Source of the DNA: an archaeon
GTDB lineage: Archaea > Nanobdellota > Nanobdellia > Pacearchaeales > UBA284
Assembly (NCBI GenBank): GCA_020343435.1
Contig: CP070794.1
Span: forward strand, 239,558-303,557
DNA: 64,000 nt
Direction of reading: 5' to 3'
Position numbers and translations under genes: made by a program. This document shows positions 3,303 to 64,000 of the stretch, piece by piece. The notes under the pieces were generated by a model. The model searched no databases and had not been told where the DNA came from. It worked only from the letters and a program-made list of their open reading frames with translations. Positions within the stretch are counted from its first letter, which is position 1. Each line of letters opens with the position of its first letter.

Positions 3303-3659
3303 ATGTTAATACCTGTGATAGAAAAAGATTGGTACAGGATAGACGCAGGATTTAGAAGAAGGACTAATAAGCAAGGAGTTAGGAAAGAAAAAAGAGAATT
3401 TTACGAGTTTATGGTTGGTCCTTCAATTAGATATCTTCCTGCAAGAACAGCTTTTGGACCAAGGCCTTATCATCCATGTGCTACACGAATGGGACAGGTA
3501 GCTAATCCCATGGTTTTTCATAGTTCTTCTTTTTTGGGAAACAGGTTAGAAGGTAGAGCTGAAGTAGCCATAATAGGGAGACCACCACTCCTCAAAGATG
3601 TTATGGATAGGATTAAAGAGTTTTATGCTAAACTTGGTTGGGAAGAAATTCTTGGCTAA
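3303..3659 (+). CDS. Hypothetical protein (R/G/P-rich ORFan class)
   Basis: 118-codon ORF. TTTTAAAT sits 28 nt upstream of the ATG within a 19-nt promoter identical to that of the 20824 gene. No family recognised. Confidence 0.5.
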   Translation: MLIPVIEKDWYRIDAGFRRRTNKQGVRKEKREFYEFMVGPSIRYLPARTAFGPRPYHPCATRMGQVANPMVFHSSSFLGNRLEGRAEVAIIGRPPLLKDVMDRIKEFYAKLGWEEILG

Positions 3660-3669
3660 ACCTTTTTCT

Positions 3670-4374
3670 TTATTCAGTCCTAATCTCAACACTTTTAAAG
3701 AGAGGTTTTAATTCTAGTTGTAATGCTTTAAGTTCATCAACAGAAGTTTTTTTCAATTTTAAGAAAGCAGGATCATGGCAGTTCTGAGGTAAAAATTGTT
3801 GTAAAACAAATTTCTTATTAGCACCATTTAATTGTAAATAAGCAGCAATTTTAAGTAAAGATTCTCTATCAACAACTTTAGGAACAACTGTTGTTCTAAA
3901 CTCATAATCTTTCAGAGTCTTAATCAACTCTATACTTTTTTTAACATTTCCAGTAACATCCCCATCACATACCTTATTATAATTATTAAAATTAGTTTTT
4001 ATATCCATAGCAACATAATCTACTAATTTATTCTTAATCAAAGAAAATAATATCTCAGGATGACTTCCATTTGTATCTAGTTTAACTTTAAATCCCATCT
4101 CTTTAAGTTCTGATATTAATAATGGTAACTCAGCATAAAGAGTTGGTTCTCCACCAGAAATTACAACCCCATCAATATATCCTTTATTTTTTTTAAGATG
4201 TTCAAATACTTCTTCTTTAGGATATGTTTTTAATTCTGATCTTTTTTCTTGGGATATTAGATGACTGTTATGACAAAAACCACATTTAAAATTACAGTTA
4301 GAAAGAAAGATTACTGCAGCTGCTTTTCCTGGATAATCAATTAATGTAAATTTCTCAAAACCTTTTATCTCCAT
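3670..4374 (-). CDS. nrdG: Anaerobic ribonucleotide reductase activating protein (radical SAM)
   Basis: CNFKCGFCHN CxxxCxxC motif and GGEPTL. Lies immediately downstream of nrdD. Confidence 0.9.
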   Translation of the reverse strand: MEIKGFEKFTLIDYPGKAAAVIFLSNCNFKCGFCHNSHLISQEKRSELKTYPKEEVFEHLKKNKGYIDGVVISGGEPTLYAELPLLISELKEMGFKVKLDTNGSHPEILFSLIKNKLVDYVAMDIKTNFNNYNKVCDGDVTGNVKKSIELIKTLKDYEFRTTVVPKVVDRESLLKIAAYLQLNGANKKFVLQQFLPQNCHDPAFLKLKKTSVDELKALQLELKPLFKSVEIRTE

Positions 4375-4382
4375 ATTTCCCC

Positions 4383-6488
4383 CTACCTACTTACAGGTGC
4401 AGGAATTACAGTATGTCCTACATTAAATAATCTTCGCTCCTCAAACTCCTTTTGTTTTCCCCTATTCCAGTTCATTATTGGTCTCAAATATCCCACTACT
4501 CTACTATAAACTTCAGTTACTTTTCCACAAACAGGACAAGATTCTTGATTTCCTTTTAAATATCCATGATCTCTACATAAAGAAAAAGTTGGTGTTAATG
4601 TGAAATAAGGAATCTTTGAGTTATGGGTCATTTTTTTAACTAATATTTTTGCTTGTTCATAATCTATAGATTCTCCTAAAAATGTATGGAATACTGTTCC
4701 ACCAGTGTAAAGAGTTTGCAATGGTTCTTGATGTTTTAAAGCAAATAAAATATCTGAAGTATAATCAACTGGTAATTGTGTTGAGTTAGTGTAATAAGGA
4801 ATATTTCCTCCTGCAGTGATTATTGAAGGGTATTGTTCTTTATCTTTTCTAGCTAATCTAAAAGAAGTTCCTTCTGCTGGTGTTGATTCTAAGTTGTAGA
4901 TATGTCCTGTTTCTTCTTGAAATTGGGTTATTCGCTCTCTCATAAATTTTAGAATCTTTATTGCAAAAGCTTGACCATTTCGTGTTTCAATACCTTCTCC
5001 TAAAAAGTTTTTACAAGCTTCATGCATTCCTACTAATCCTATTGTAGAGAAATGATGATCAAGATTTCCTAGATATCTTTTAGTGTAAGGTAATAACCAG
5101 TTATCTAAATTCCTATTTACTACTTTTCTTTTTATTTCTAGAGATCTCATTGCTAGATACATTAAACTATCCAATCTTTCCAAAAATACCTCTTCTGATC
5201 TCGCTAAATAACCCAATCTTGGTAAATTAATAGTCACAACACCAATACTTCCTGTGTTTTCCCCTGATCCAAATCTTCCTCCTGTAACATTTCTAGTTAA
5301 TTCTTTTAATTCTAACCTTAATCTACAACACATACTTCTTACATCAGAAGGTTTAAGATCTGAATTAACAAAGTTTGAAAAGTAAGGTAATCCATATTTA
5401 GAGGTCATCTTAAATAATAAATCTGCTATTTCAGTATTCCATTTAAAATCTCTTGTTATATTATATGTTGGAATTGGCCATGTGAATACTCTTCCTCTAG
5501 AATCTCCATTTAACATAACTTCAATAAATGCTTTATTTACAATATCCATTTCAGTTTGATAATCTGAATAAGTGTCTTTTTGTGCTTGTCCTGCAATAAT
5601 CACTGGTTGGTCTTTCATATCTTCTGGGACAGTTAGATCAAGAGTAATATTACTAAATGGAGTTTGGCCTCCCCATCTTGTTGTTATATTCATGTTATGC
5701 ACAAACTCTTGCATAACCTGCTTAACCCCCTGATAATCGAGGTTATCATGCCTAACAAAAGGAGCAAGATAAGTATCTACTGAATTAAAAGCTTGAGCTC
5801 CAGACCATTCGTTCTGTAAAGTTCCTATAAAGTTAACCATGTGGCCTACAGCAGTTCTCATGTGCCTTGTAGGACCAGACTCAGTTTTTCCTGGAACTCC
5901 ATTAAATCCTTCTCTTAAGAGCTGATTTAAAGACCATCCTGCGCAATAACCTGCTAAACTCATACCAAGATCATGAATATGGAAATCAGAATTAATATGT
6001 GCTTTCCCTATTTCAGGTGGATAAACATAATGTAATCCATAATATGCCATTATTGTTCCAGCTGAGTGTAAGAATAATCCTGAATGAGAGTAACCTACAT
6101 TAGCGTTTTCATTAACACGCCAGTCTTCTTTTCCTATATAATCTCTGACTACTTGTTGAGCATCTAAGAATGTTTTTTTAGTTTCCCTCATCTTTCTTCT
6201 CTCTTCTCTATATAGGATAAATGCTTTTGCTGTTTTGACATATCCTCTTCTAACTAGAACCCCTTCTATAACATCCTGGACTTCTTCAAGACCTGGAACA
6301 GGTTCAAGATGATCTGATCTCTTTTTTAATTCAGATTCTAAAGTATCAATAACTTCTCTTGTCACTTCTTCTAGATCAAACTTATCAGAATTCTCTGCTG
6401 CTCTTGCAGATTGTGTCAATGCTTGTTTAATCCTATCAGGATCAAAGTCAACAACACGACCATCCCTTTTTCTCGCCTTTTTAATCAT
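4383..6488 (-). CDS. nrdD: Anaerobic (class III) ribonucleoside-triphosphate reductase with an N-terminal ATP-cone
   Basis: ATP-cone start KRDGRVVDFDPDRIKQAL. C-terminal Zn site CRDHG..CPVCG. Glycyl-radical motif SRVVGYLRP. Confidence 0.95.
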   Translation of the reverse strand: MIKKARKRDGRVVDFDPDRIKQALTQSARAAENSDKFDLEEVTREVIDTLESELKKRSDHLEPVPGLEEVQDVIEGVLVRRGYVKTAKAFILYREERRKMRETKKTFLDAQQVVRDYIGKEDWRVNENANVGYSHSGLFLHSAGTIMAYYGLHYVYPPEIGKAHINSDFHIHDLGMSLAGYCAGWSLNQLLREGFNGVPGKTESGPTRHMRTAVGHMVNFIGTLQNEWSGAQAFNSVDTYLAPFVRHDNLDYQGVKQVMQEFVHNMNITTRWGGQTPFSNITLDLTVPEDMKDQPVIIAGQAQKDTYSDYQTEMDIVNKAFIEVMLNGDSRGRVFTWPIPTYNITRDFKWNTEIADLLFKMTSKYGLPYFSNFVNSDLKPSDVRSMCCRLRLELKELTRNVTGGRFGSGENTGSIGVVTINLPRLGYLARSEEVFLERLDSLMYLAMRSLEIKRKVVNRNLDNWLLPYTKRYLGNLDHHFSTIGLVGMHEACKNFLGEGIETRNGQAFAIKILKFMRERITQFQEETGHIYNLESTPAEGTSFRLARKDKEQYPSIITAGGNIPYYTNSTQLPVDYTSDILFALKHQEPLQTLYTGGTVFHTFLGESIDYEQAKILVKKMTHNSKIPYFTLTPTFSLCRDHGYLKGNQESCPVCGKVTEVYSRVVGYLRPIMNWNRGKQKEFEERRLFNVGHTVIPAPVSR

Positions 6489-7244: not shown

Positions 7245-7664
7245 ATGAAGAAAAAAAATAGATCAAAATGGGATGGTAGAAGAAGACCAATTGTTTCCCA
7301 GCGTAGAAGAAGAAGTGTAGAAGATACTCTCCCAAGTTTTTCATATAGACCTTCTGCTGATGAAGTTTTAAGAGTTGCACATAGGGTGAGATATGCTCAT
7401 CCTCCTGAGAACCCTAAAAGATCTGCGATCGCGGCTTGTTTAAAACCTAAGGGAGGATATAGGTTAATTTCTTTTCAAATAGGTAAAAATGAAGGGCAGG
7501 GAGATGTTGTTTCTCTTCCCTTGGAATATGGGGTAGTTCAAGAACTTAGTTTGGACGAGTTTGCTGGTTTAGAAATTCCCCCACCAGTTAGGCAGCAATT
7601 ATATAAAGCAAGAGGACAAAAAGATCCAAGAGCTTATATTTTACAAGTTGCAGAGGCAGAATAA
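7245..7664 (+). CDS. Hypothetical protein with a strongly basic N-terminal arm (ORFan class)
   Basis: MKKKNRSKWDGRRRPIVSQRRRRS... ; CTTTAAAT lies 34 nt upstream of the ATG. No family recognised. Confidence 0.5.
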   Translation: MKKKNRSKWDGRRRPIVSQRRRRSVEDTLPSFSYRPSADEVLRVAHRVRYAHPPENPKRSAIAACLKPKGGYRLISFQIGKNEGQGDVVSLPLEYGVVQELSLDEFAGLEIPPPVRQQLYKARGQKDPRAYILQVAEAE

Positions 7665-29533: not shown

Positions 29534-29644
29534 GCTTCGGTAGCTCAGTGGTTAGAGCATACGGCTGTTAAGACTCTTCTTCAAAATATGAAGGGAGAGA
29601 TCAAAGAAACCGTAGGGTCGCAGGTTCAAATCCTGCCCGAAGCG
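29534..29644 (+). tRNA. tRNA-Asn (anticodon GUU) with a 38-nt intron at the canonical 37/38 site
   Basis: Acceptor GCTTCGG/CCGAAGC, D-arm GCTC-AGTGGTTA-GAGC, anticodon stem TACGG/CCGTA around loop CTGTTAA, intron about 29571-29608, T-arm GCAGG-TTCAAAT-CCTGC. Confidence 0.85.
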
Positions 29645-34822: not shown

Positions 34823-35185
34823 TTATGAGAATAATTCTGGATTTCTAGTATTAGTAAAATAGTGATTTCTTAATGCTTGTGCTACTGCAGTTTCAACAGC
34901 ATAAATTGGGACCATTCTACCATCAGGTCTTTCTTTGGTAGCTGTTCCCCTCCATTTATCTTGGGGAGTTTGAACTAAAGAGTATACCTCGTTTCCAGTA
35001 GAATCTCTGATCACGAAACGTTTTGTTCCTATTCCGTGGCGAGGTTCAACATCCCAAGAACCCAGACGTGTGTCTGGAGCAATTGCCCCTCTCTCTTTTA
35101 ACTCTTTTGCTTTTTTATGGGCCACAAAGAATAAATTGGGCCCTTTTTCTGCTATTCCAACAAGACCGCAACCACCACATACCAT
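34823..35185 (-). CDS. Hypothetical protein (ORFan class)
   Basis: 120-codon ORF between mcm and tbp with its own T/A box about 28 nt upstream of the ATG. Hand counts: K 8, R 10. No family recognised. Confidence 0.5.
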   Translation of the reverse strand: MVCGGCGLVGIAEKGPNLFFVAHKKAKELKERGAIAPDTRLGSWDVEPRHGIGTKRFVIRDSTGNEVYSLVQTPQDKWRGTATKERPDGRMVPIYAVETAVAQALRNHYFTNTRNPELFS

Positions 35186-36545: not shown

Positions 36546-37589
36546 ATGGCACAAGATCTCTTTGATTCAGTTAAAGAATCTGGGAAGAAACCTGAAAAAG
36601 AAACTGGAACCACAAAAGAAGAGAGTCTTCCATTACTTGGAATTTTTGCAGAATATTTGGGGGTCACCCCTAAGGAAACATTTTCATTAGAACCTGATCC
36701 TGCAACACATTTTCCAAGAGGGAGTATATTTTTAACTAGTCAAGAAAGATTACTAAGGAAAGCAGGATTATGTCCTGAAAGTCCAGAGGTTTATTCTCAA
36801 CCTTTATTTGATGCTCGTATAAATGAACGTTTGGCTCATCCACCAAGAGCTCCAGAATCCAGACATCTTCCATTAGTTAGGCCTCCTTTAATCGGTGCTA
36901 GTGGGGGGAGAGCGCGAAAAGGAAGAATTTTACCAACTGGGTTAAAGAGATTGATATGGGAACATTTAGTAGATTTGTCTAGGTTAAATCTTCCATTTGA
37001 AGAATATGTACAACAAAGAGCTAGAGATATCGCACATGTTAGAGATGTTGTTGTTAGAGCATATGAAGAAGAATTAAAATTTGCAAAAGACAACCCCCGA
37101 CCAAATGTTAAAGAACGTTGGAGTGAGGAAGCTAAATCAAGAGCTGCAGAAACAATACAAAGATTAGATGCTATTGGGGAAATTAGAGAACAGGCAATTA
37201 AAACATATCATGTTGATCCTCTTGATATGGTTATATGGGATAGCGAAGATGCACATTATTTATTAGATCCTCCTGAGAAAGTATCCCTTGGAGATAATGA
37301 ATTTGATTGGATGTTTCCTGTTCAATCTGGAAGAGCAATGCTTCGAGAAAATTATCTCCTTCCAATTCCCACAGGAGATATAGATAGGAGAACTGCTAAG
37401 AAAAAAACATTTGTAGCTTATAGTATTCCAATTTCTTTAGGAGATTTTACAGGATTATTGCATGAAGCAGGCTTAGTTTCAGAACATGAGATGACCCCTT
37501 TTACTAGTGCTCTTTTTAATAGGCCAGTTTGGGAAGCTACTAAAGTAGCGTATAATGTTATGGATGGAGATGCTGAAGAAGCAGATTAA
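36546..37589 (+). CDS. Hypothetical protein (ORFan class)
   Basis: 347-codon ORF. TTTATAAA at 36517 lies 29 nt upstream of the ATG. The stop shares a TTAA with the convergent EF-2 stop. Confidence 0.5.
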   Translation: MAQDLFDSVKESGKKPEKETGTTKEESLPLLGIFAEYLGVTPKETFSLEPDPATHFPRGSIFLTSQERLLRKAGLCPESPEVYSQPLFDARINERLAHPPRAPESRHLPLVRPPLIGASGGRARKGRILPTGLKRLIWEHLVDLSRLNLPFEEYVQQRARDIAHVRDVVVRAYEEELKFAKDNPRPNVKERWSEEAKSRAAETIQRLDAIGEIREQAIKTYHVDPLDMVIWDSEDAHYLLDPPEKVSLGDNEFDWMFPVQSGRAMLRENYLLPIPTGDIDRRTAKKKTFVAYSIPISLGDFTGLLHEAGLVSEHEMTPFTSALFNRPVWEATKVAYNVMDGDAEEAD

Positions 37590-39751
37590 TCTAATCCTTT
37601 TCTTTGTCTAATTTGTCTTACTATCTTATCTTGTAGATCTCTTGGTACTGGTGCAAATAATTGATCAACAATATAGAAAGTTCCTCTTCCCTCTGTTGCT
37701 GATCTTAGATCATTACTTAATCCAATCATCTCACTAACTGGCATCTGTGCTCTTATACTTACATGTTCTCCTTCTTGATCTACATTAAGTAACTGTCCTC
37801 TTTTACTTTGAATGATTTTTGAAACCTCTCCCATATATCTAAAAGGAGATTCTAATTGGATAACTTGTAATGGTTCATAAAGAACAACACCAGCATCTCG
37901 CATTGATAATCTAATAGCATCTCTTACAGCTGGAAGAACTTGAGCAGGACCTCTGTGAATTGCATCTTCATGAAGTTTAGCATCCATTAAAGATATTTTT
38001 AATTTAGTACATGGTTCTTTTGCAAGACTTCCTGCATCTACTATTTGTTCAAAAGCTTGCATTGCTAATTCTATAACTTCCCCAATTGCAACAATTCCAC
38101 TTGTTTCATCTAAGAATACACAATCTTTGTAAATCTCTTTGTAATCTCTTGCTTCATTATTATCTACTCCCAAACTTGTTAATATTTTCCACAAGTTTTG
38201 ATCTTTTTTCTTAATTTTCATATCTCCAATTTCTCCTGATTTAATAGCTTGATAAACAGGATCTTCTAATGGTTGAACTCTTAAAAAGAAGATATTATGT
38301 TTGTTTGGAGATCTTCCTTCAAATGTTTTTCCTGGTTTAGTTATTGTTTCTCTGAAAACAACGATTGGTGGAGAAGCTGTTACATCAACTCCTTTTTCTG
38401 TTTTAATTCTTGTAGTTACAACATCTAAATGTAATTCTCCCATCCCAGATAATAAGTGTTGTCCTGTTTCTTCATTAATCTCTACTCTTATAGAAGGATC
38501 TTCTTTTCCAACTTGTCTTAGAACATTGATTAGTTTAGGTAAATCAGCTGGTTTCTTTGCTTCAATACTTGATGTAACCACAGGTTCGAAAATATGTTTT
38601 AGAGCTTCAAATGGTTCTATGGGTTTAGTTGAAACTGTTTCTCCTGCAAAAACATCTGTTAATCCTGCAACTCCAACAATATTTCCTGCTGGTGCTTCAT
38701 CAATAACAAATCTTTGTGGTCCTTTGTAAACATTAACTTGTTGTGCTTTAACCCATCTCTTAGCTTGGTTTAAGTATAATTCTTGTCCTCGTTTTATTGT
38801 TCCTGAGAATAATCTTCCTGCTGCAACTTCTCCTGCATGTTTATCAACAACAATTTTTGTAGGTACAAAAATTACTGGTCCTTCAGGATTTGTTGCTAAT
38901 AAGGATTTTCCTTCTTCAGATTCTAATTCTCCGTGCCAGAATTTTGGAATTCTGTATTTTTGTGCTTCAACAGGATTAGGAAGATGTTTAATAACCATAT
39001 CCATAACTACTTTGTATATTGGTGCTTTTTTCATTAATTCTTTTATTTTTTCTTGAGATTCTGTTTCATAAGCTTCTGTTATATCTGAGAATTTAATTCC
39101 AGTATCTTTCATATATTTTAGACTTAATGCCCATTTATCTTTTCCAGAACCAAAACAGAAAGATCCTTCTTTAACATTAATTACCCACTCATCTTTGAAT
39201 TCTGGAGGAACTATTGATAAAATGAATTTATTAACATCTGTTATGATCTGAATAAGTTTTTCTTGAATCTTGTTTGCTGGAAGTCTTAATTCTTTGATTA
39301 ATCTATCAGCTTTGTTAATAAATAAAGTTGGTTTAACTTTTTCTCTTAATGCTTGTTTTAATACTGTTTCTGTTTGTGGCATCATTCCTTCAGCTGCGTC
39401 TACTACTACAATTGCTCCGTCAACAGCTCTCATAGCTCTTGTAACATCTCCTCCAAAATCTACATGACCAGGAGTATCTATTAAATTGATAAGATAATCT
39501 TTTCCTGCAACTTCATGAACCATATTAACATTTGCAGAATCAATTGTTATTCCTCTTGATTGTTCATCTTCATGAAAATCCATATAAAATGCTCCGCCAG
39601 CAACATCTTCAGATAACATTCCTGCACCTGCAAGTAAAGAATCTGTTAAAGTTGTTTTACCATGATCAATATGAGCACAGATACCTATGTTTCTAATTTG
39701 TTCTGGTTTCTTCATTAATTCTAGAATCTTTTTTGTTTTATCATCTACCAT
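37586..39751 (-). CDS. fusA: Translation elongation factor aEF-2
   Basis: AHIDHGKTTLTD, DTPGHVDF and NKADR G-motifs. Diphthamide-site LHEDAIHRGPAQ. Confidence 0.97.
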   Translation of the reverse strand: MVDDKTKKILELMKKPEQIRNIGICAHIDHGKTTLTDSLLAGAGMLSEDVAGGAFYMDFHEDEQSRGITIDSANVNMVHEVAGKDYLINLIDTPGHVDFGGDVTRAMRAVDGAIVVVDAAEGMMPQTETVLKQALREKVKPTLFINKADRLIKELRLPANKIQEKLIQIITDVNKFILSIVPPEFKDEWVINVKEGSFCFGSGKDKWALSLKYMKDTGIKFSDITEAYETESQEKIKELMKKAPIYKVVMDMVIKHLPNPVEAQKYRIPKFWHGELESEEGKSLLATNPEGPVIFVPTKIVVDKHAGEVAAGRLFSGTIKRGQELYLNQAKRWVKAQQVNVYKGPQRFVIDEAPAGNIVGVAGLTDVFAGETVSTKPIEPFEALKHIFEPVVTSSIEAKKPADLPKLINVLRQVGKEDPSIRVEINEETGQHLLSGMGELHLDVVTTRIKTEKGVDVTASPPIVVFRETITKPGKTFEGRSPNKHNIFFLRVQPLEDPVYQAIKSGEIGDMKIKKKDQNLWKILTSLGVDNNEARDYKEIYKDCVFLDETSGIVAIGEVIELAMQAFEQIVDAGSLAKEPCTKLKISLMDAKLHEDAIHRGPAQVLPAVRDAIRLSMRDAGVVLYEPLQVIQLESPFRYMGEVSKIIQSKRGQLLNVDQEGEHVSIRAQMPVSEMIGLSNDLRSATEGRGTFYIVDQLFAPVPRDLQDKIVRQIRQRKGLD

Positions 39752-39753
39752 TT

Positions 39754-40338
39754 TTACCTTGCAGAATCAGCTTGTTTTTCTGTTTCTGTTTTCTTTTTAA
39801 CTGCGAAACTATCTGGAGTTCCTTTGGAAGCATTAATTATTTCTGTTGCTAAAGTTTCTGCGAATTTTACTTTTTTATTAAAAGATTTATCAAACGCTCC
39901 ATGAACTAAATGTTTTAATGCAATGTCTACTCTTCGATAAGGAGCACAATCAACAGCTTGAGGATATCTTGCTCCACCATACTCTATTGTTGTAATCTCA
40001 TCGTGTGGAGCAGCATTCTCTATTGCTCTTACCAGAACTTGAATAGGATTTTCTTTAGTTCTTTCTTCTATGATTTTGAAAGTTTGAAGTAAAGTTTTAG
40101 CATGTTGATTATATTTTCCAGTAACTTTTGTAATTATCTTATGTTTTTTTCCTCTATGACCTGGAACAGCTATTTTATTCATTAATCTTTCAACAATATT
40201 AACTTTAGTTTTACCAAATCTTTCTCTGTGTCTTCCATGAGCTTTAATTAATAATTTTGGTTCTAAGTTAATGCACTTTTGCAAACTAATATCTTGTACT
40301 TTAACATCAGAACTGTCATAAATATCGAATATTTTCAT
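39754..40338 (-). CDS. rps7: Ribosomal protein uS7
   Basis: KLMNKIAVPGHRGKKH..., QAVDCAPYRRVDIALKHL. Position upstream of EF-2. Confidence 0.95.
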   Translation of the reverse strand: MKIFDIYDSSDVKVQDISLQKCINLEPKLLIKAHGRHRERFGKTKVNIVERLMNKIAVPGHRGKKHKIITKVTGKYNQHAKTLLQTFKIIEERTKENPIQVLVRAIENAAPHDEITTIEYGGARYPQAVDCAPYRRVDIALKHLVHGAFDKSFNKKVKFAETLATEIINASKGTPDSFAVKKKTETEKQADSAR

Positions 40339-40616
40339 TTTTTAACAAAAACAATCCCTCTTCTTGGTTTATATCTATAATCTCCATATTCTGTAAACTC
40401 ATCAAACATAAAAGGGGTTGTTGGTTCTTCTCTACCTTCCCTTTGAACATAAACTTTGGTTAGACCAGGTAATCTCAAAATACTTAGTACAACTCTAACC
40501 ACTTTAACAGGAACTGTTTCTTCTCCGGGGTTTGTACGAGCTGTTTCTGGGTGTCCATAAGGTATTAGATTAAGTTCAATACCTGGAGCCAACTCAACAA
40601 ATCTACTCCTAACCAT
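40335..40616 (-). CDS. 93-aa ORFan inserted between rps12 and rps7, translationally coupled to both
   Basis: ATG 40616 lies one nt after the S12 TAA (40620-40618). Its TGA overlaps the S7 ATG as ATGA (40338-40335). The protein is MVRSRFVELAPGIELNLIPYGHPETARTNPGEE..YRYKPRRGIVFVKK. The track start 40637 is inside rps12. Confidence 0.55.
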   Translation of the reverse strand: MVRSRFVELAPGIELNLIPYGHPETARTNPGEETVPVKVVRVVLSILRLPGLTKVYVQREGREEPTTPFMFDEFTEYGDYRYKPRRGIVFVKK

Positions 40617-40617
40617 T

Positions 40618-41040
40618 TTATCTTCTACCTTTCTCAATCTTTCCTCTAACTAATTGTCTTAGAGTTTGATCATTTACTTTAATAACTTGGAATCTTACGC
40701 AAGGAATATCTCCTTTAGCTCTTCCTTGTTTTCCACCAATACACTCAATCATAACTTCATCATGTTCATCAATATGTTTTTGTGCTAAGTTTCCTGGAAC
40801 AAATGCAGCTACTTTTTTATTAGATCCAGATAATTGAACTCTTACACATTTTCTCATTGCTGAATTTGGCTGTTTTGCTTCTAATTGAATCTTTTCAAGA
40901 ACAATTCCTTTTGCTTGACTATCTCCCCCTAAAGGATCTGATTTTGCTTTTAATCTTAATGTTCTCTTTTTGTATTTAACGTTCTTCCATCTGAATTTCT
41001 TTCTTCTTTTCTTTAGTTTTCTTGCTGACATTAATCCCAT
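40618..41040 (-). CDS. rps12: Ribosomal protein uS12
   Basis: [15 protein letters not shown] and [20 protein letters not shown] signatures. Confidence 0.95.
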
Positions 41041-41061: not shown

Positions 41062-41092
41062 TTTATAAAGGTTACTTGGAAACCTTTAAAAA
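41062..41092. promoter_or_regulatory. Back-to-back divergent TATA boxes for rps12 (leftward) and rpl15e (rightward)
   Basis: TTTATAAA at 41062-41069 lies 29 nt from ATG 41040 on the - strand. TTTAAAAA at 41085-41092 lies 29 nt from ATG 41114. This implies leaderless mRNAs. Confidence 0.55.
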
Positions 41093-41113: not shown

Positions 41114-41689
41114 ATGAAATCAGCTTATACTTATCTCAGAGAAGCAATGCGTCAAAAAAGAGATACAAAAGAATGGCGGGAGTTGCTTACAAGATGGAGA
41201 AAATCTAGAGTTGTTGTAAGAACAGCTAAACCATTTAGATTAGATCAAGCTAGACGTTTAGGACTTAAAGCTAAGAAAGGATTTACAATTGCGAGAGTTA
41301 GATTAAGGAGAGGAGGACATAAGAAAACAAGACCAAGAGGAGGAAGAAGATCTAAACGAATGACTATTAAAAAAAGTTTGAAAATGAATTATAGATGGAT
41401 TGCTGAATCAAGAGCAGCAAGAAAGTTTCCTAATCTTGAAGTTTTAAATTCATATAAATTAGCTCAAGATGGTAGAAATTATTTCTTTGAAATTATATTA
41501 GTAGATCCTAAAATTCCTGAGATTCGAAAAGATAAGAATTTGAAATGGTTAGGTTCTAAGAAGAATAAGAGAAGAGTTTTTAGAGGTTTAACTTCTGCTG
41601 GGAGAAAATCAAGAGGATTGAGAAACAAAGGTAACAGGGCAATAAAAGTTAGACCAAGTGTTAGATCTGGTGGTAGAAAAGGTAAATAA
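41114..41689 (+). CDS. rpl15e: Ribosomal protein eL15
   Basis: AYTYLREAMRQKR..RLDQARRLGLKAKKGFTIARVRLRRGG is the L15e signature. Confidence 0.95.
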   Translation: MKSAYTYLREAMRQKRDTKEWRELLTRWRKSRVVVRTAKPFRLDQARRLGLKAKKGFTIARVRLRRGGHKKTRPRGGRRSKRMTIKKSLKMNYRWIAESRAARKFPNLEVLNSYKLAQDGRNYFFEIILVDPKIPEIRKDKNLKWLGSKKNKRRVFRGLTSAGRKSRGLRNKGNRAIKVRPSVRSGGRKGK

Positions 41690-41691
41690 AA

Positions 41692-42138
41692 TTAATGGGT
41701 AGGATCGTCTGAACCAGGACCTAAAGAAGAAACTACAGAATCAAGCAGGCTTGGATAAAGTTGTATGTAAATATCATTCTTTTTATCATATAAAACATAT
41801 CTTCTTTGTTCTTTTGGATTAGATTTATTGAAGGGTTCCACGCATAGTTCAAATCTGTAATATGGTTCTTTTCCCGGTTCCCCAATACTTCTTAGTTGTT
41901 GTATAAAATAAGTGCCCCAGCACCCCCATCTATTACGAACACGAAAGTACTGACCATCCATACTTGTAACCTCTCCAACAACTGGGCCATTATGATCTGT
42001 ACGCATCTCATTTCTTGAAGAATCCCAAATTCCGAATTCAAGTTTCCCAGGTTTTCCTGATCTTGTCCTCACAAGTTCTTTTAATGTTACTGGGTCTGCA
42101 GTCTTAGGAACAATATCCATGTTTAGTTCTAGAAGCAT
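41692..42138 (-). CDS. Hypothetical protein (ORFan class)
   Basis: 148-codon ORF convergent with rpl15e (2-nt gap). W/R/G/Y-rich. No family recognised. Confidence 0.5.
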   Translation of the reverse strand: MLLELNMDIVPKTADPVTLKELVRTRSGKPGKLEFGIWDSSRNEMRTDHNGPVVGEVTSMDGQYFRVRNRWGCWGTYFIQQLRSIGEPGKEPYYRFELCVEPFNKSNPKEQRRYVLYDKKNDIYIQLYPSLLDSVVSSLGPGSDDPTH

Positions 42139-46814: not shown

Positions 46815-47405
46815 ATGGGAGACCCAATTGGAGAAGTAGAGATTCCTGATGACTCTAGAGTTCGTAACATAATGGATGTTTATCCTAGAACAAAAGTTCT
46901 TGACACAAAAATTTATGGTATAGATGGATACAGGAGCGGCGATAGTCACATATTATTACTAGCACAACAAGCATTTCCAAGACAAGGGAATTATACTTCT
47001 AATGTTTATGCATTGGTCCCAAAAGATGGGAGGGATATTGTAGTTAGTGCTGATGTTTTTTGTGGAGATAATTTTGTAAGATCTGTTGAAAGTTCTACAA
47101 AGATAGGGCCTTTTGATTTTAATAGATTTCAGTCTGCAGTATATGATGTTCGAAGAGGGACAGGAAGAGTGGTTAGACTGGAGTGTAATGACTCTGATGC
47201 TGGGATTAATAATAGAACAAGAGATCTAAAAACATGTAGAGCAGGTGCTGTTCCAATTGAAACACTTTTAAGGGGATGTGAAGTTAGAGTTGTTAAAAAG
47301 AGAAAATTTAAGGATAGGCGAACATTATTAGATAGAATTGGTGATGGGCTTGCCAGTTCAATTTTTAAAGCGGTTGAATTATATGATCCAGGTAATGTTT
47401 CTTAA
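46815..47405 (+). CDS. Hypothetical protein (ORFan class)
   Basis: 196-codon ORF. TTTAAAAG at 46786 lies 29 nt upstream of the ATG. No family recognised. Confidence 0.5.
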   Translation: MGDPIGEVEIPDDSRVRNIMDVYPRTKVLDTKIYGIDGYRSGDSHILLLAQQAFPRQGNYTSNVYALVPKDGRDIVVSADVFCGDNFVRSVESSTKIGPFDFNRFQSAVYDVRRGTGRVVRLECNDSDAGINNRTRDLKTCRAGAVPIETLLRGCEVRVVKKRKFKDRRTLLDRIGDGLASSIFKAVELYDPGNVS

Positions 47406-59980: not shown

Positions 59981-61430
59981 ATTCCAGTTTATCCTGCTGG
60001 AGAATGCTGCTATCTAGCTTGGACTAAGCCATGCAAGTCCTTCGAGAGAAGGCAAACTGCTGAGTAACACGTAGCTAATCTACCCTTAGTTCTGGAATAA
60101 CTTCGGGAAACTGAGGATAATACCAGATAGGTAATAATGATTGGAATATCTTATCATTCAAAACTTTGGTGACTAAGGATGAGGCTGCGGCCTATCAGGT
60201 TGTTGTCGGGGTAAAAGCCCAACAAGCCGATGACGGGTAGGGGCGCTGAGAGGCGGAGCCCCCAGAAGGACTCTGAGACACTAGTCCTAGCCCTACGGGG
60301 TGCAGCAGGCGCGAAACTTTTGCAATGCTCGAAAGAGTGACAAAGCAAGCTAGAGTGTGTTTCCATATTGGAAACACTTTTGTCTTGTGTAAAAAGCAAG
60401 ATGAATAAGGGCTGGGTAAGACCGGTGCCAGCAGCCGCGGTAATACCGGCGGCCCAAGTGGTATTCGCATTTACTGGGTCTAAAACATTCGTAGCCGGCC
60501 TTGTAAGTCTTTTGTTAAACTTTTACGCTTAACGTAAAACTTGCAGAAGATACTGCGAGGCTAGGGACTGGGAGACGTGATGAGTACGATAAGGGTAGCG
60601 GTAAAATGCTCTGATCCTTATTGGACTAACAATGGCGAAGGCACATCACGAGAACAGCTCCGACGGTGAGGAATGAAAGCCAAGGGCGCAAAACGGATTA
60701 GATACCCGTGTAGTCTTGGCTGTAAACGCTGCCCACTAAACATTGTGATCTCCTCGAGAGATTGCGGTGCTGTAGCGAAGGCGGAAGTGGGCTACCTGGG
60801 AAGTATAGTCGCAAGATCGAAACTTAAAGGAATTGGCGGGGAGACACTACAAGGGGTGATCGCGTGCGGTTTAATTAGATTTCACACCGTGAACCTCACC
60901 AGGAGCGACAGCAGAATGAAGGTCAGATTAAAGTTCTTACCTGACACGCTGAGAGGAGATGCATGGCCGTCGTCAGCCTGTGTTGTGAGATGATCTGTTA
61001 AATCAGGTAACAGGCGAGACCCGTGTTTGTAGTTGCTATTCGGTAAGAAAGCACACTACAGAGACTGCCTTCGTAAGGAGGAGGAAGGTGCGGGCAACGA
61101 TAGGTGAGTACGTCCCGAATCCCCTGGGCTACACGCGCGCGTCAATGGTAGTAACAATGGGATGCAATGTCGAAAGGCAAAGCTAACCCCCTAAATGCTA
61201 TCTTAGTCCAGATTGAGGTTTGCAACTCAACCTCATGACGATGGAATCCCTAGTAATCGGACGTTAGCAGCGTCCGGTGAATACGTCCCTGTCTCTTGCA
61301 CACACCGCCCATCAATCCGACCGAGTTATATCTGGGTGAAGCTTTCTCGAAGAGAAGAGCCTTGGTATGGCAAGGTAGGGTAAGTTGTCACAAGGTATCC
61401 GTAGGGGAACCTGCGGATGGATCACCTCCT
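59981..61430 (+). rRNA. rrs: 16S rRNA (archaeal)
   Basis: The 5' end ATTCCAGTTTATCCTGCTGG matches archaeal ATTCCGGTTGATCCTGCCGG. GTGCCAGCAGCCGCGGTAATACCGGCGGCC is present. The 3' end is GGATCACCTCCT. Confidence 0.95.
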
Positions 61431-61491
61431 ATTTAAATTTCAGTGTACTTGAGCTAAAGGTTTTTAAAATTAGAATCATAATTTTAATGAT

Positions 61492-61591
61492 GGGCCTGTA
61501 GCTTAATGGTAGAGCGCTGCCCTTGCAACGATTTTTCCTTTGGGAAAAGCAAGAAAGGCAGAGGTTCTGGGTTCAAATCCCAGCAGGTCCA
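61492..61591 (+). tRNA. tRNA-Ala (anticodon UGC) with a 28-nt intron, located in the 16S-23S spacer
   Basis: Acceptor GGGCCTG/CAGGTCC gives the G3:U70 Ala identity pair. Anticodon stem CTGCC/GGCAG around loop CTTGCAA. Intron about 61528-61555 with a TTTTCC/GGAAAA hairpin. T-arm CTGGG-TTCAAAT-CCCAG. Confidence 0.85.
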
Positions 61592-61721
61592 TGTCTTTCT
61601 AATTCATGTTCAACAATTAGATGATGATAGCAATTAATCTTGTTATCTGAGTTGATACTTATAGTAGATGAAACACCATAGTAGGAAAGCTTTAGATAGA
61701 TGTCTAAAAGAAGAATTTAGG

Positions 61722-64000
<2,279 letters not shown>

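What the first reader, a model, noticed from the sequence alone, without database searches (positions are those of the whole stretch)
40335..40616. Unknown 93-aa gene wedged between rps12 and rps7 and translationally coupled to both
Established knowledge: uS12 and uS7 genes are directly adjacent in the str operon of bacteria and archaea, followed by EF-2/EF-G. Seen here: the S12 TAA (40620-40618) is followed by one nt and then ATG 40616. The ORF's TGA overlaps the S7 ATG in an ATGA (40338-40335). S7 is followed 2 nt later by EF-2. There is no room for a promoter or terminator. The ORF must therefore be co-transcribed, and very likely co-translated, with some of the most highly expressed genes of the cell. 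The protein (MVRSRFVELAPGIELNLIPYGHPETARTNPGEETVPVKVVRVVLSILRLPGLTKVYVQREGREEPTTPFMFDEFTEYGDYRYKPRRGIVFVKK) is of the R-rich ORFan class. It does not look like any ribosomal protein, NusA or L30e that I know. Inference: it is a candidate lineage-specific ribosome-associated or translation-associated factor.
Basis: partly seen in the sequence, partly recalled or inferred. Interest (0 to 1): 0.8.

Follow-up and report, generated by a model that had tools for sequence, protein, structure and literature searches.

The report
Orphan gene in S12–S7 hot slot
The 93-codon gene between ribosomal protein genes S12 and S7 is real and probably translated, but it is a fast-evolving orphan with one known relative, sitting at a junction where over half of related archaea carry different, unrelated small genes, so its position is weak evidence for a ribosome role.

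Summary
S12 (40618-41040), a 93-codon ORF (40335-40616), S7 (39754-40338) and EF-2 (37586-39751) lie head to tail on the minus strand, joined by TAA-A-ATG, ATGA and TAA-AA-ATG.

ORF93 behaves as a real coding gene. An open frame of this length has a chance of about 0.001. Its GC by codon position (0.52/0.40/0.16) matches bona fide genes. Its only homolog among ~15 billion proteins (P0002, 94 aa, 37% identity) also starts one nucleotide after an S12 stop, in an independent metagenome.

It does not look like a ribosomal protein:
- No family, structure or fold match.
- Net charge +2.6, and -0.5 in the homolog, against +14 to +51 for neighbouring r-proteins.
- dN/dS about 0.95, against about 0.09 for S12.
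- Absent from L027, among the closest relatives recovered.

In 42 of 77 related Pacearchaeota-type loci the S12-S7 junction holds 1-5 small ORFs. They fall into about 58 sequence groups that do not match each other, and none has a Pfam hit. They are almost always coupled to S12 and S7 in the same way.

Best reading: an accessory orphan cistron in a high-turnover, translationally relayed slot. A ribosome-associated function is neither shown nor excluded.

The parts
41062..41069 (-). TATA-box-like TTTATAAA about 25 nt upstream of the S12 ATG. Likely operon promoter, giving a leaderless or very short-leader S12 mRNA.
   Evidence: Read from the sequence. The next upstream gene, L15e, is divergent (41114-41689 +). 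Promoter function is inferred, not tested.
40618..41040 (-). Ribosomal protein uS12 gene (140 aa)
   Evidence: Pfam PF00164, E 9.8e-39. 67-86% identical to S12 of Pacearchaeota-type loci.
40614..40620 (-). Junction TAA-A-ATG: S12 stop, one nucleotide, ORF93 start. This is the same string that joins S12 directly to S7 in relatives with no insert.
   Evidence: In 36 of 42 occupied loci the first gap ORF starts within -4..+3 nt of the S12 stop.
40335..40616 (-). ORF93: orphan gene for a 93-aa, 10.8-kDa protein, predicted beta-rich and soluble
   Evidence: Chance of an open frame about 0.001. Coding GC periodicity. One syntenic homolog, P0002. No family, structure or fold match. AlphaFold2 pLDDT 53, all-beta.
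40335..40338 (-). ATGA overlap: the ORF93 stop TGA overlaps the S7 start ATG
   Evidence: There is no Shine-Dalgarno match in the 15 nt before the S7 ATG (tttttgttaaaaaATG), judged against the 16S 3' end GGATCACCTCCT.
39754..40338 (-). Ribosomal protein uS7 gene (194 aa)
   Evidence: Pfam PF00177, E 5.8e-35. Orthologs align from residue 1.
39756..39760 (-). AAGGT Shine-Dalgarno-like motif, made of the last S7 codon and its stop, 4 nt before the EF-2 ATG
   Evidence: Sequence, compared with the anti-SD CCUCC of the 16S 3' end.
37586..39751 (-). Elongation factor aEF-2 gene (721 aa), last gene of the co-directional run
   Evidence: Pfam GTP_EFTU, EFG_III, EFG_IV and EFG_C.

Best explanation
ORF93 is a genuine, translated, taxonomically restricted (orphan) gene for a small, soluble, probably beta-rich protein. 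It sits in a high-turnover slot of the str operon of Pacearchaeota-type archaea.

Proposed mechanism. One transcript starts at the TATA-like box just upstream of S12. Ribosomes terminating S12 at TAA re-initiate one nucleotide later on the ORF93 ATG. In relatives without an insert, that ATG position is S7's own start site. The ribosomes translate ORF93 and, on terminating at the TGA inside ATGA, re-initiate on S7, which has no Shine-Dalgarno sequence of its own.

What selection visibly preserves is this relay: an open frame with tight junctions at both ends, plus a protein-like composition. The amino-acid sequence itself is only weakly constrained.

The product is therefore most likely a dispensable accessory protein, not a structural or universal ribosome component.

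Shown here: the gene is real, it is syntenic in a second organism, it evolves fast, and the slot and relay architecture are clade-wide. Inferred: actual coupling, S7's dependence on ORF93 translation, and dispensability of the protein.
For: Reality of the gene:
- Exact junction geometry.
- Open frame probability about 0.001.
- GC1/2/3 of 0.52/0.40/0.16, and 0.52/0.44/0.11 in the homolog, against flat values for random stop-free frames.

Homolog:
- An exhaustive search of 1.84 billion cluster representatives found a single homolog, P0002 (E 6e-6). It is full length (94 aa), 37% identical, with a pairwise BLASTP E of 1e-14.
- It is encoded one nucleotide after the stop of an S12 that is 88% identical to the window's, on an independent ENA contig.
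- 13 of the 35 identical residues use different codons.
- Under simulated neutral drift to the same nucleotide identity, the frame stayed open in only 0.5% of runs and amino-acid identity averaged 25%, never reaching 37%.

Weak constraint and non-ribosomal character:
- NG86 dN 0.67 and dS 0.70, against dN 0.086 and dS 0.97 for S12 on the same two contigs.
- Charge +2.6 and -0.5, against +25 (S12), +14 (S7) and +51 (L15e).

The slot:
- 42 of 77 distinct related loci have 150-1213 nt between S12 and S7. The distribution is bimodal (34 loci at 60 nt or less, one between 61 and 149 nt), and a sense-strand open frame covers a median 96% of the gap, against 44% on the antisense strand.
- 36 of 42 first ORFs start within -4..+3 nt of the S12 stop. 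40 of 42 last ORFs end within -20..+30 nt of the S7 ATG.
- The ORFs fall into 14 small families plus 44 singletons. None of the 66 scanned has a Pfam hit, and PHROG and PADLOC gave only three isolated marginal matches.
- Presence and absence are patchy even between sister lineages.
- S7 lacks a Shine-Dalgarno sequence.
Against: - Only two family members exist, so constraint estimates are crude. NG86 at 37% identity and 32% GC is unreliable, and an average ratio near 1 can hide a conserved core alongside sites under positive selection.
- The maintained GC1/GC2 excess and the conserved hydrophobic blocks (LNLI, TVPV, KVYV, FD-F-E) show that the protein matters to some degree, so 'dispensable' may be too strong.
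- No expression data exist.
- An internal TATA-like string at 40380-40368 could make S7 independent of the relay.
- High co-expression with ribosomal genes remains compatible with a translation-related role.
Confidence: 0.55

Rival explanations
1. A lineage-specific ribosome- or translation-associated factor. The small beta-rich protein binds the ribosome, S12/S7 or EF-2, and is co-produced with them because it works with them.
For: - Operon membership and coupling to S12 and S7.
- The same position after S12 in the only homolog.
- The low-confidence AlphaFold2 model is all-beta. Its weak Foldseek neighbours include SH3-like barrels such as eL21 and Tudor domains, but only at E 0.2-3 and TM 0.3-0.44.
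Against: - Absent from the nearest complete relatives.
- The same slot is filled by unrelated ORFs in sister lineages, and the S7-EF-2 junction is equally porous.
- Charge is not conserved and not basic.
- dN/dS is about 0.95.
- No HMM or fold match to any ribosomal protein or factor.
Confidence: 0.15
2. A conflict or interaction protein under diversifying selection, for example in dealings with the host cell, a virus or a competitor. It is parked in the str operon only because that site guarantees strong constitutive expression. The hypervariable slot would then be a diversification locus.
For: - Very fast protein evolution in ORF93 (ratio about 0.95) and in other slot families (0.2-1.1, against 0.01-0.10 for S12).
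- Extreme diversity and patchy turnover of occupants.
- All occupants lack known domains.
- Roughly a third of the window's genes are similar 'dark' ORFs with a distinct composition.
Against: - No signal peptide or membrane segment (maximum 19-residue hydropathy 1.43).
- No PADLOC, PHROG or viral homolog.
- Positive selection cannot be separated from relaxed constraint with two sequences.
Confidence: 0.2
3. Not a protein-coding gene. The 279 nt would be a spacer or regulatory RNA, for example an S7-binding operator like the E. coli S12-S7 intercistronic region, that merely happens to be open.
For: - In E. coli, S7 represses coupled S12-S7 translation through the intercistronic RNA, and about a third of bacteria have an extended rpsL-rpsG distance (PMC3616713).
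- dN is about equal to dS.
Against: - Strong three-base GC periodicity in both homologs.
- The frame is kept open in two diverged lineages (p about 0.005).
- Start and stop sit exactly at the neighbouring genes' stop and start.
- No Rfam match.
- The folding energy is ordinary: z = -0.76, and 21 of 100 shuffles fold at least as well.
Confidence: 0.05
4. ORF93 is an N-terminal extension of S7, made by -1 ribosomal slippage on the A6 run before the stop (GTT AAA AAA TGA), yielding an ORF93-S7 fusion.
For: - An A-run directly precedes the stop, and the S7 frame is -1 relative to ORF93.
- Related lineages carry S7 N-terminal extensions of 0-74 aa, and Thermoplasmata about 150-280 aa.
Against: - The homolog ends ...ATT AGT GAC TGA, with no slippery run.
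- The heptamer is not canonical (T AAA AAA).
- ORF93 shows no similarity to any S7 extension.
- ATGA overlaps are the ordinary coupling signal in this clade.
Confidence: 0.03

Closest known systems
Taxonomically restricted (orphan) genes embedded in conserved operons
   Same: No detectable homolog outside a very narrow lineage. Short and fast-evolving. Dependent on the expression signals of neighbouring genes.
   Different: It sits inside one of the most conserved gene pairs known (S12-S7, canonical in archaea including DPANN; PMC10833476). It also belongs to a clade-wide pattern in which the same junction holds a different orphan in most lineages.
E. coli str operon S12-S7 intercistronic region (translational coupling and S7 autogenous repression)
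   Same: The same gene junction. S7 synthesis depends mainly on coupling to upstream translation (PMC3616713). An extended S12-S7 distance is common in some lineages.
   Different: In E. coli the spacer is a structured non-coding RNA bound by S7. Here the spacer is a translated ORF with coding periodicity, no unusual RNA structure and no Rfam match.
Hyperplastic regions, 'morons' and gene-turnover hot spots between conserved core genes in phage and bacterial genomes (from my own knowledge, not tested here)
   Same: A fixed position between conserved genes holds diverse, mostly unannotated small ORFs that differ between close relatives.
   Different: No mobile-element hallmarks: no flanking repeats, no integrase, and no homologs outside the slot. 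The occupants use translational relay rather than their own promoters. The host is a cellular archaeon and the site is a ribosomal operon.
Small SH3-like / beta-barrel ribosomal proteins (eL21, eL14) and Tudor or chromo domains
   Same: Similar size and a predicted all-beta character. These are the weak top Foldseek neighbours.
   Different: The matches are not significant (E at least 0.09, TM at most 0.44) and come from a low-confidence model (pLDDT 53). There is no HMM similarity, and the protein is not basic.

Membership tests
Known ribosomal protein families (archaeal, universal or eukaryote-type) | Sequence match to a curated family model | tested here: not met
   No Pfam or NCBIfam hit at E<=1. 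The PDB sequence-profile search gave only Titin at E 0.48.
Known ribosomal protein families (archaeal, universal or eukaryote-type) | Strongly basic, and conserved in presence across related genomes | tested here: not met
   Charge +2.6 and -0.5, against +14 to +51 for S7, S12 and L15e. Absent from L027, L058, L001, L002 and L004.
Known ribosomal protein families (archaeal, universal or eukaryote-type) | Physical presence in purified ribosomes | not testable with these tools
   Needs mass spectrometry or cryo-EM of ribosomes from an enrichment culture.
L30e / NusA (usual archaeal neighbours of S12) | L7Ae-type fold or KH domains detectable by HMM | tested here: not met
   No Pfam hit. The canonical order is nusA-S12-S7 (PMC10833476), whereas here L15e lies upstream on the other strand.
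Orphan / taxonomically restricted gene | No homolog outside a narrow lineage despite exhaustive search | tested here: met
   Only itself and P0002 turned up in the 5.8-billion-cluster search and the exhaustive 1.84-billion-representative search. Metagenome, viral-contig and phage scans found nothing.
Orphan / taxonomically restricted gene | Evidence that it is a real coding gene rather than a chance ORF | tested here: met
   plus the syntenic homolog.
Translationally coupled operon cistron | Stop and start overlap or lie within a few nt on both sides; same strand; the downstream gene lacks its own SD | tested here: met
   TAA-A-ATG and ATGA junctions. No SD before S7, judged against the 16S 3' end. 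The same geometry is seen in 36/42 and 40/42 related loci.
Translationally coupled operon cistron | Downstream translation actually depends on upstream translation | not testable with these tools
   Needs a reporter with a premature stop, or Ribo-seq.
S7-binding autoregulatory RNA (E. coli str type) | Conserved structured RNA between S12 and S7 | tested here: not met
   No Rfam hit. Folding z-score -0.76.
Mobile gene cassette / integron-like or element-borne insertion | Flanking repeats or recombination sites, and copies in other genomic contexts | tested here: not met
   Only the 6-nt AAAATG is shared at both borders, and it includes the obligatory ATG. There is no paralog or source copy in the window. 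All cross-locus homologs of slot ORFs lie in the same slot.
SH3-like small beta-barrel fold | Confident structural superposition | tested here: inconclusive
   Model pLDDT 53, pTM 0.45. Best Foldseek E 0.09 against PDB and 0.05 against BFVD, with TM 0.51 or lower in every match.

The most novel reading that the evidence does not exclude
Pacearchaeota-type archaea maintain, inside the str operon, a dedicated and translationally relayed expression slot between S12 and S7, with a second one between S7 and EF-2. This slot is continually refilled with, or diversifies, small novel proteins. ORF93 is one occupant. The occupants would be lineage-specific modulators of the ribosome or of the symbiont-host interface, produced at the same level as ribosomal proteins. 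This would be a gene nursery or diversification locus placed in the most conserved operon of the cell.
Probability: 0.2. Interest if true: 0.8.

Novelty: new variant of a known kind. Interest (0 to 1): 0.5.

Why it matters
S12-S7 is one of the most stable gene pairs in bacteria and archaea and is used as a synteny anchor. If the pattern holds, a whole archaeal clade tolerates, or exploits, insertion of ever-changing orphan genes exactly at this junction while keeping the translational relay intact.

That would give a natural system for three questions:
- How new genes are born or captured.
- How translational coupling constrains operon evolution.
- What the large 'dark' gene fraction of DPANN genomes does.

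For annotation, it warns against assigning function from r-protein operon context in these lineages.

Tried and rejected
- **Known families.** Pfam, NCBIfam, PHROGs and PADLOC gave no hit for ORF93 or P0002. The PDB sequence-profile search gave nothing.
- **Structure.** AlphaFold2 on the single sequence gave pLDDT 38 and on the two-sequence alignment pLDDT 53. Foldseek against PDB and BFVD gave no significant match, so the SH3-like hints are treated as a lead only.
- **More homologs.** The profile search of the 5.8-billion-cluster database, degenerate-pattern scans of metagenome and viral contigs and tblastn against phages found nothing. An exact-sequence lookup of ORF93 found it is not on record.
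- **Homology with other ORFans.** BLASTP, phmmer and hhalign against the other slot ORFs and the window's other ORFans found nothing (probability below 6%).
- **Local origin.** There is no duplication or paralog in the window. The 45-nt spacer of L027 shows no remnant of ORF93 (score below the shuffle mean).
- **RNA element.** Rejected.
- **Mobile cassette.** Rejected for lack of repeats and of out-of-slot copies.
- **Split from an extended S7.** I considered that ORF93 split off an N-terminally extended S7. There is no similarity to any such extension, and those extensions are K/E-rich low-complexity sequence, unlike ORF93.
- **Literature.** Searches found no description of ORFs between archaeal S12 and S7.
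- **Not used.** The third large protein search was left unused because no remaining question justified its cost.

Full report
**1.

On the minus strand the window reads S12 (40618-41040), a 93-codon ORF (40335-40616), S7 (39754-40338) and EF-2 (37586-39751). The junctions are TAA-A-ATG, ATGA and TAA-AA-ATG. Pfam confirms the three flanking genes and finds nothing for the ORF.

A TATA-like TTTATAAA lies about 25 nt before the S12 ATG. The next upstream gene, L15e, is divergent, so S12 is the first gene of the unit.

The ORF is not a chance frame:
- At this composition a 92-codon open frame has probability 0.0005-0.001.
- Wrong frames of three long genes never exceed 52 open codons.
- GC at codon positions 1/2/3 is 0.52/0.40/0.16, the pattern of real genes here (EF-2 0.51/0.34/0.12). 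Stop-free random frames are flat.

**2. Homologs**

A word-indexed search of 5.8 billion clusters returned only the protein itself, annotated as a hypothetical protein of an unclassified archaeal MAG on a 648-kb contig. The exhaustive HMMER pass over 1.84 billion representatives added exactly one protein, P0002: 94 aa, 37-38% identity over the full length, E 6e-6, pairwise BLASTP 1e-14.

P0002 lies on a 545-nt ENA metagenome contig. Its ATG follows, after one nucleotide, the TAA of an S12 whose last 77 residues are 88% identical to the window's. The gene is therefore conserved in position, length and upstream coupling in a second organism.

Profile searches and scans of metagenome, viral and phage collections found no further member.

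**3. How it evolves**

- Thirteen of the 35 identical residues use different codons.
- Crude NG86 estimates give dN 0.67 and dS 0.70 for ORF93 against P0002. S12 on the same two contigs gives dN 0.086 and dS 0.97.
- A neutral simulation to the same nucleotide identity kept the frame open in only 0.5% of runs. It gave 25% mean amino-acid identity and never reached 37%.
- Both homologs keep the GC1 > GC2 >> GC3 pattern.

I read this as selection for an open, protein-like frame with weak constraint on the actual sequence. With two sequences, relaxed constraint and diversifying selection cannot be separated.

**4. What the protein looks like**

No Pfam, NCBIfam, PHROG, PADLOC or PDB-sequence match exists. 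AlphaFold2 gives pLDDT 38 on the single sequence and 53 (pTM 0.45) on the two-sequence alignment, with an all-beta topology. Foldseek finds nothing significant. The weak neighbours are SH3-like barrels, eL21 and Tudor domains at E 0.2-3.

The protein has no membrane-like segment. Its net charge is +2.6, and its homolog's is -0.5. S12, S7 and L15e here carry +25, +14 and +51. It does not resemble a ribosomal protein.

**5. The wider context changes the interpretation**

S7- and S12-anchored scans recovered 105 related loci, mostly labelled Pacearchaeota or Woesearchaeota. Several of the closest relatives have S12 abutting S7 through the same AGAAGATAAAATG string (L001, L004, L058), or a short non-coding spacer (L027, 45 nt).

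After correcting for variable S7 N-terminal extensions:
- 42 of 77 distinct loci have 150-1213 nt between S12 and S7, 34 have 60 nt or less, and only one lies in between.
- The longest sense-strand open frame covers a median 96% of the gap, against 44% on the antisense strand.
- In 36 of 42 occupied loci the first ORF starts within -4..+3 nt of the S12 stop, usually exactly +1 as in the window.
- In 40 of 42 the last ORF ends within -20..+30 nt of the S7 ATG.

The contents are extraordinarily diverse. The 79 gap ORFs plus ORF93 and P0002 form 14 small families and 44 singletons, and none is related to ORF93. None of the 66 scanned has a Pfam hit, and PHROG and PADLOC give only three isolated marginal matches among them. 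Every cross-locus homology lies in the same slot. Slot families evolve with a dN/dS ratio of 0.2-1.1, against 0.01-0.10 for the adjacent S12.

On an S12+S7 neighbour-joining tree, occupancy is patchy even between sisters: window against L027, L030 against L031, L028 against L058. Basal lineages are empty. The S7-EF-2 junction is interrupted in 20 of 32 loci.

In the window itself, about 26 ORFs share a distinct composition (GC 0.35-0.39, low Lys, same GC3 as their neighbours). At least 23 of them have no Pfam hit. They are interleaved among housekeeping genes.

**6. A calibration caveat**

Slot ORFs are only 33-45% identical when the adjacent S12 proteins are 84-91% identical. Most locus pairs here have S12 identity of 70-80%. 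At that distance, homology of slot ORFs would be undetectable even if they shared an ancestor.

'Unrelated' therefore means 'not detectably related'. The differences in length (50-165 aa) and copy number (1-5 ORFs), and the precise empty junctions in sister lineages, favour repeated gain and loss but do not prove it.

**7. Mechanism**

The 16S 3' end is GGATCACCTCCT. EF-2 has an AAGGT four nucleotides upstream. S7 has no such motif (tttttgttaaaaaATGA) and overlaps the ORF93 stop. ORF93 occupies the TAA-A-ATG site that S7 itself uses in insert-free relatives.

The most economical model is a termination-reinitiation relay, S12 to ORF93 to S7. An insertion at this junction survives only if it remains a translated bridge. 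The clade-wide conservation of junction geometry, despite non-conserved content, is the main support.

A weak A-U hairpin that includes the S7 AUG would fit this model, but it is unremarkable at this base composition. The E. coli precedent of S12-S7 coupling, and of S7 repression through the intercistronic RNA (PMC3616713), is the closest known system. Here, however, the spacer is coding, shows no unusual folding (z = -0.76) and has no Rfam match.

**8. Verdict**

- The gene is real, orphan and probably highly expressed.
- The position-based inference of a ribosome-associated factor is weak, because position in this clade is not informative.
- The best-supported reading (confidence about 0.55) is an accessory, weakly constrained small protein whose cistron also serves as the translational bridge to S7.
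- A conflict or interaction role (0.2) and a genuine ribosome-associated role (0.15) remain open.
- The more interesting result is the clade-wide hypervariable, relay-coupled slot in the str operon. I could not find it described in the literature.

Noticed in passing
window, whole (e.g. 3303-3659, 7245-7664, 34823-35185, 36546-37589, 41692-42138, 46815-47405, 53675-54010, 55068-55499, 56722-57117): About 26 ORFs have GC 0.35-0.39, Lys at or below 9% (at or below 8% for all but one), usually with Arg at least as frequent, and the same low GC3 as their neighbours. They are interleaved with K-rich housekeeping genes of GC 0.25-0.33. At least 23 of the 26 have no Pfam hit, and they are not paralogs of each other. 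Because GC3 is equal, the composition gap argues against recent transfer and for a distinct class of proteins.
   Followed up: partly
L001-L106, S7-EF-2 junction: The S7-EF-2 junction is also interrupted: the gap exceeds 150 nt in 20 of 32 loci where both genes are seen. In many other loci no EF-2 start was found in the downstream sequence held, which exceeds 1 kb in most of them. The whole str operon is porous in this clade.
   Followed up: partly
L044, L060/L062, L072, L053, L041 (S7 N-termini); L023 2185-3552, L024 1730-2737: S7 carries hypervariable N-terminal extensions of 0-74 aa in Pacearchaeota-type loci. In two Thermoplasmata contigs it carries Lys/Glu-rich extensions of about 150-280 aa.
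   Followed up: no
L041 273-1500 vs L061 261-1409: The slot ORFs have dS 0.14-0.18, while the adjacent S12 has dS 0.68 and the S7 DNA is only about 70% identical. This looks like a mosaic: either recombination or unusual nucleotide-level constraint on the slot.
   Followed up: partly
L005 3599-5636: EF-2 appears as two adjacent pieces (3599-4564 and 4566-5636). This could be a frameshift, a split gene or an assembly error.
   Followed up: no
window 59981-64000, 61492-61591, 29534-29644: A 16S-tRNA-23S rRNA operon runs off the window end. Two Rfam tRNA matches of 100 and 111 nt are missed by ARAGORN, so they probably contain introns.
   Followed up: no
window 40368-40380 and about 40330-40354: A TATA-like TTATAGATATAAA lies inside ORF93 about 36 nt before the S7 ATG. 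A weak A-U hairpin includes the S7 AUG. An A6 run precedes the ORF93 TGA. All three may be chance at 32% GC.
   Followed up: no
window 36546-37589 (+) against 37586-39751 (-): A 347-aa orphan ORF converges on EF-2, and their 3' ends overlap by 4 nt. There is no terminator-like site between them.
   Followed up: no
L026 518-545: In the only homolog's contig, the 25 nt after the P0002 stop (TTGGGGTAAGAACCCTATTGACCCG) do not look like an S7 start. Downstream coupling to S7 therefore cannot be confirmed there, because the contig ends.
   Followed up: no
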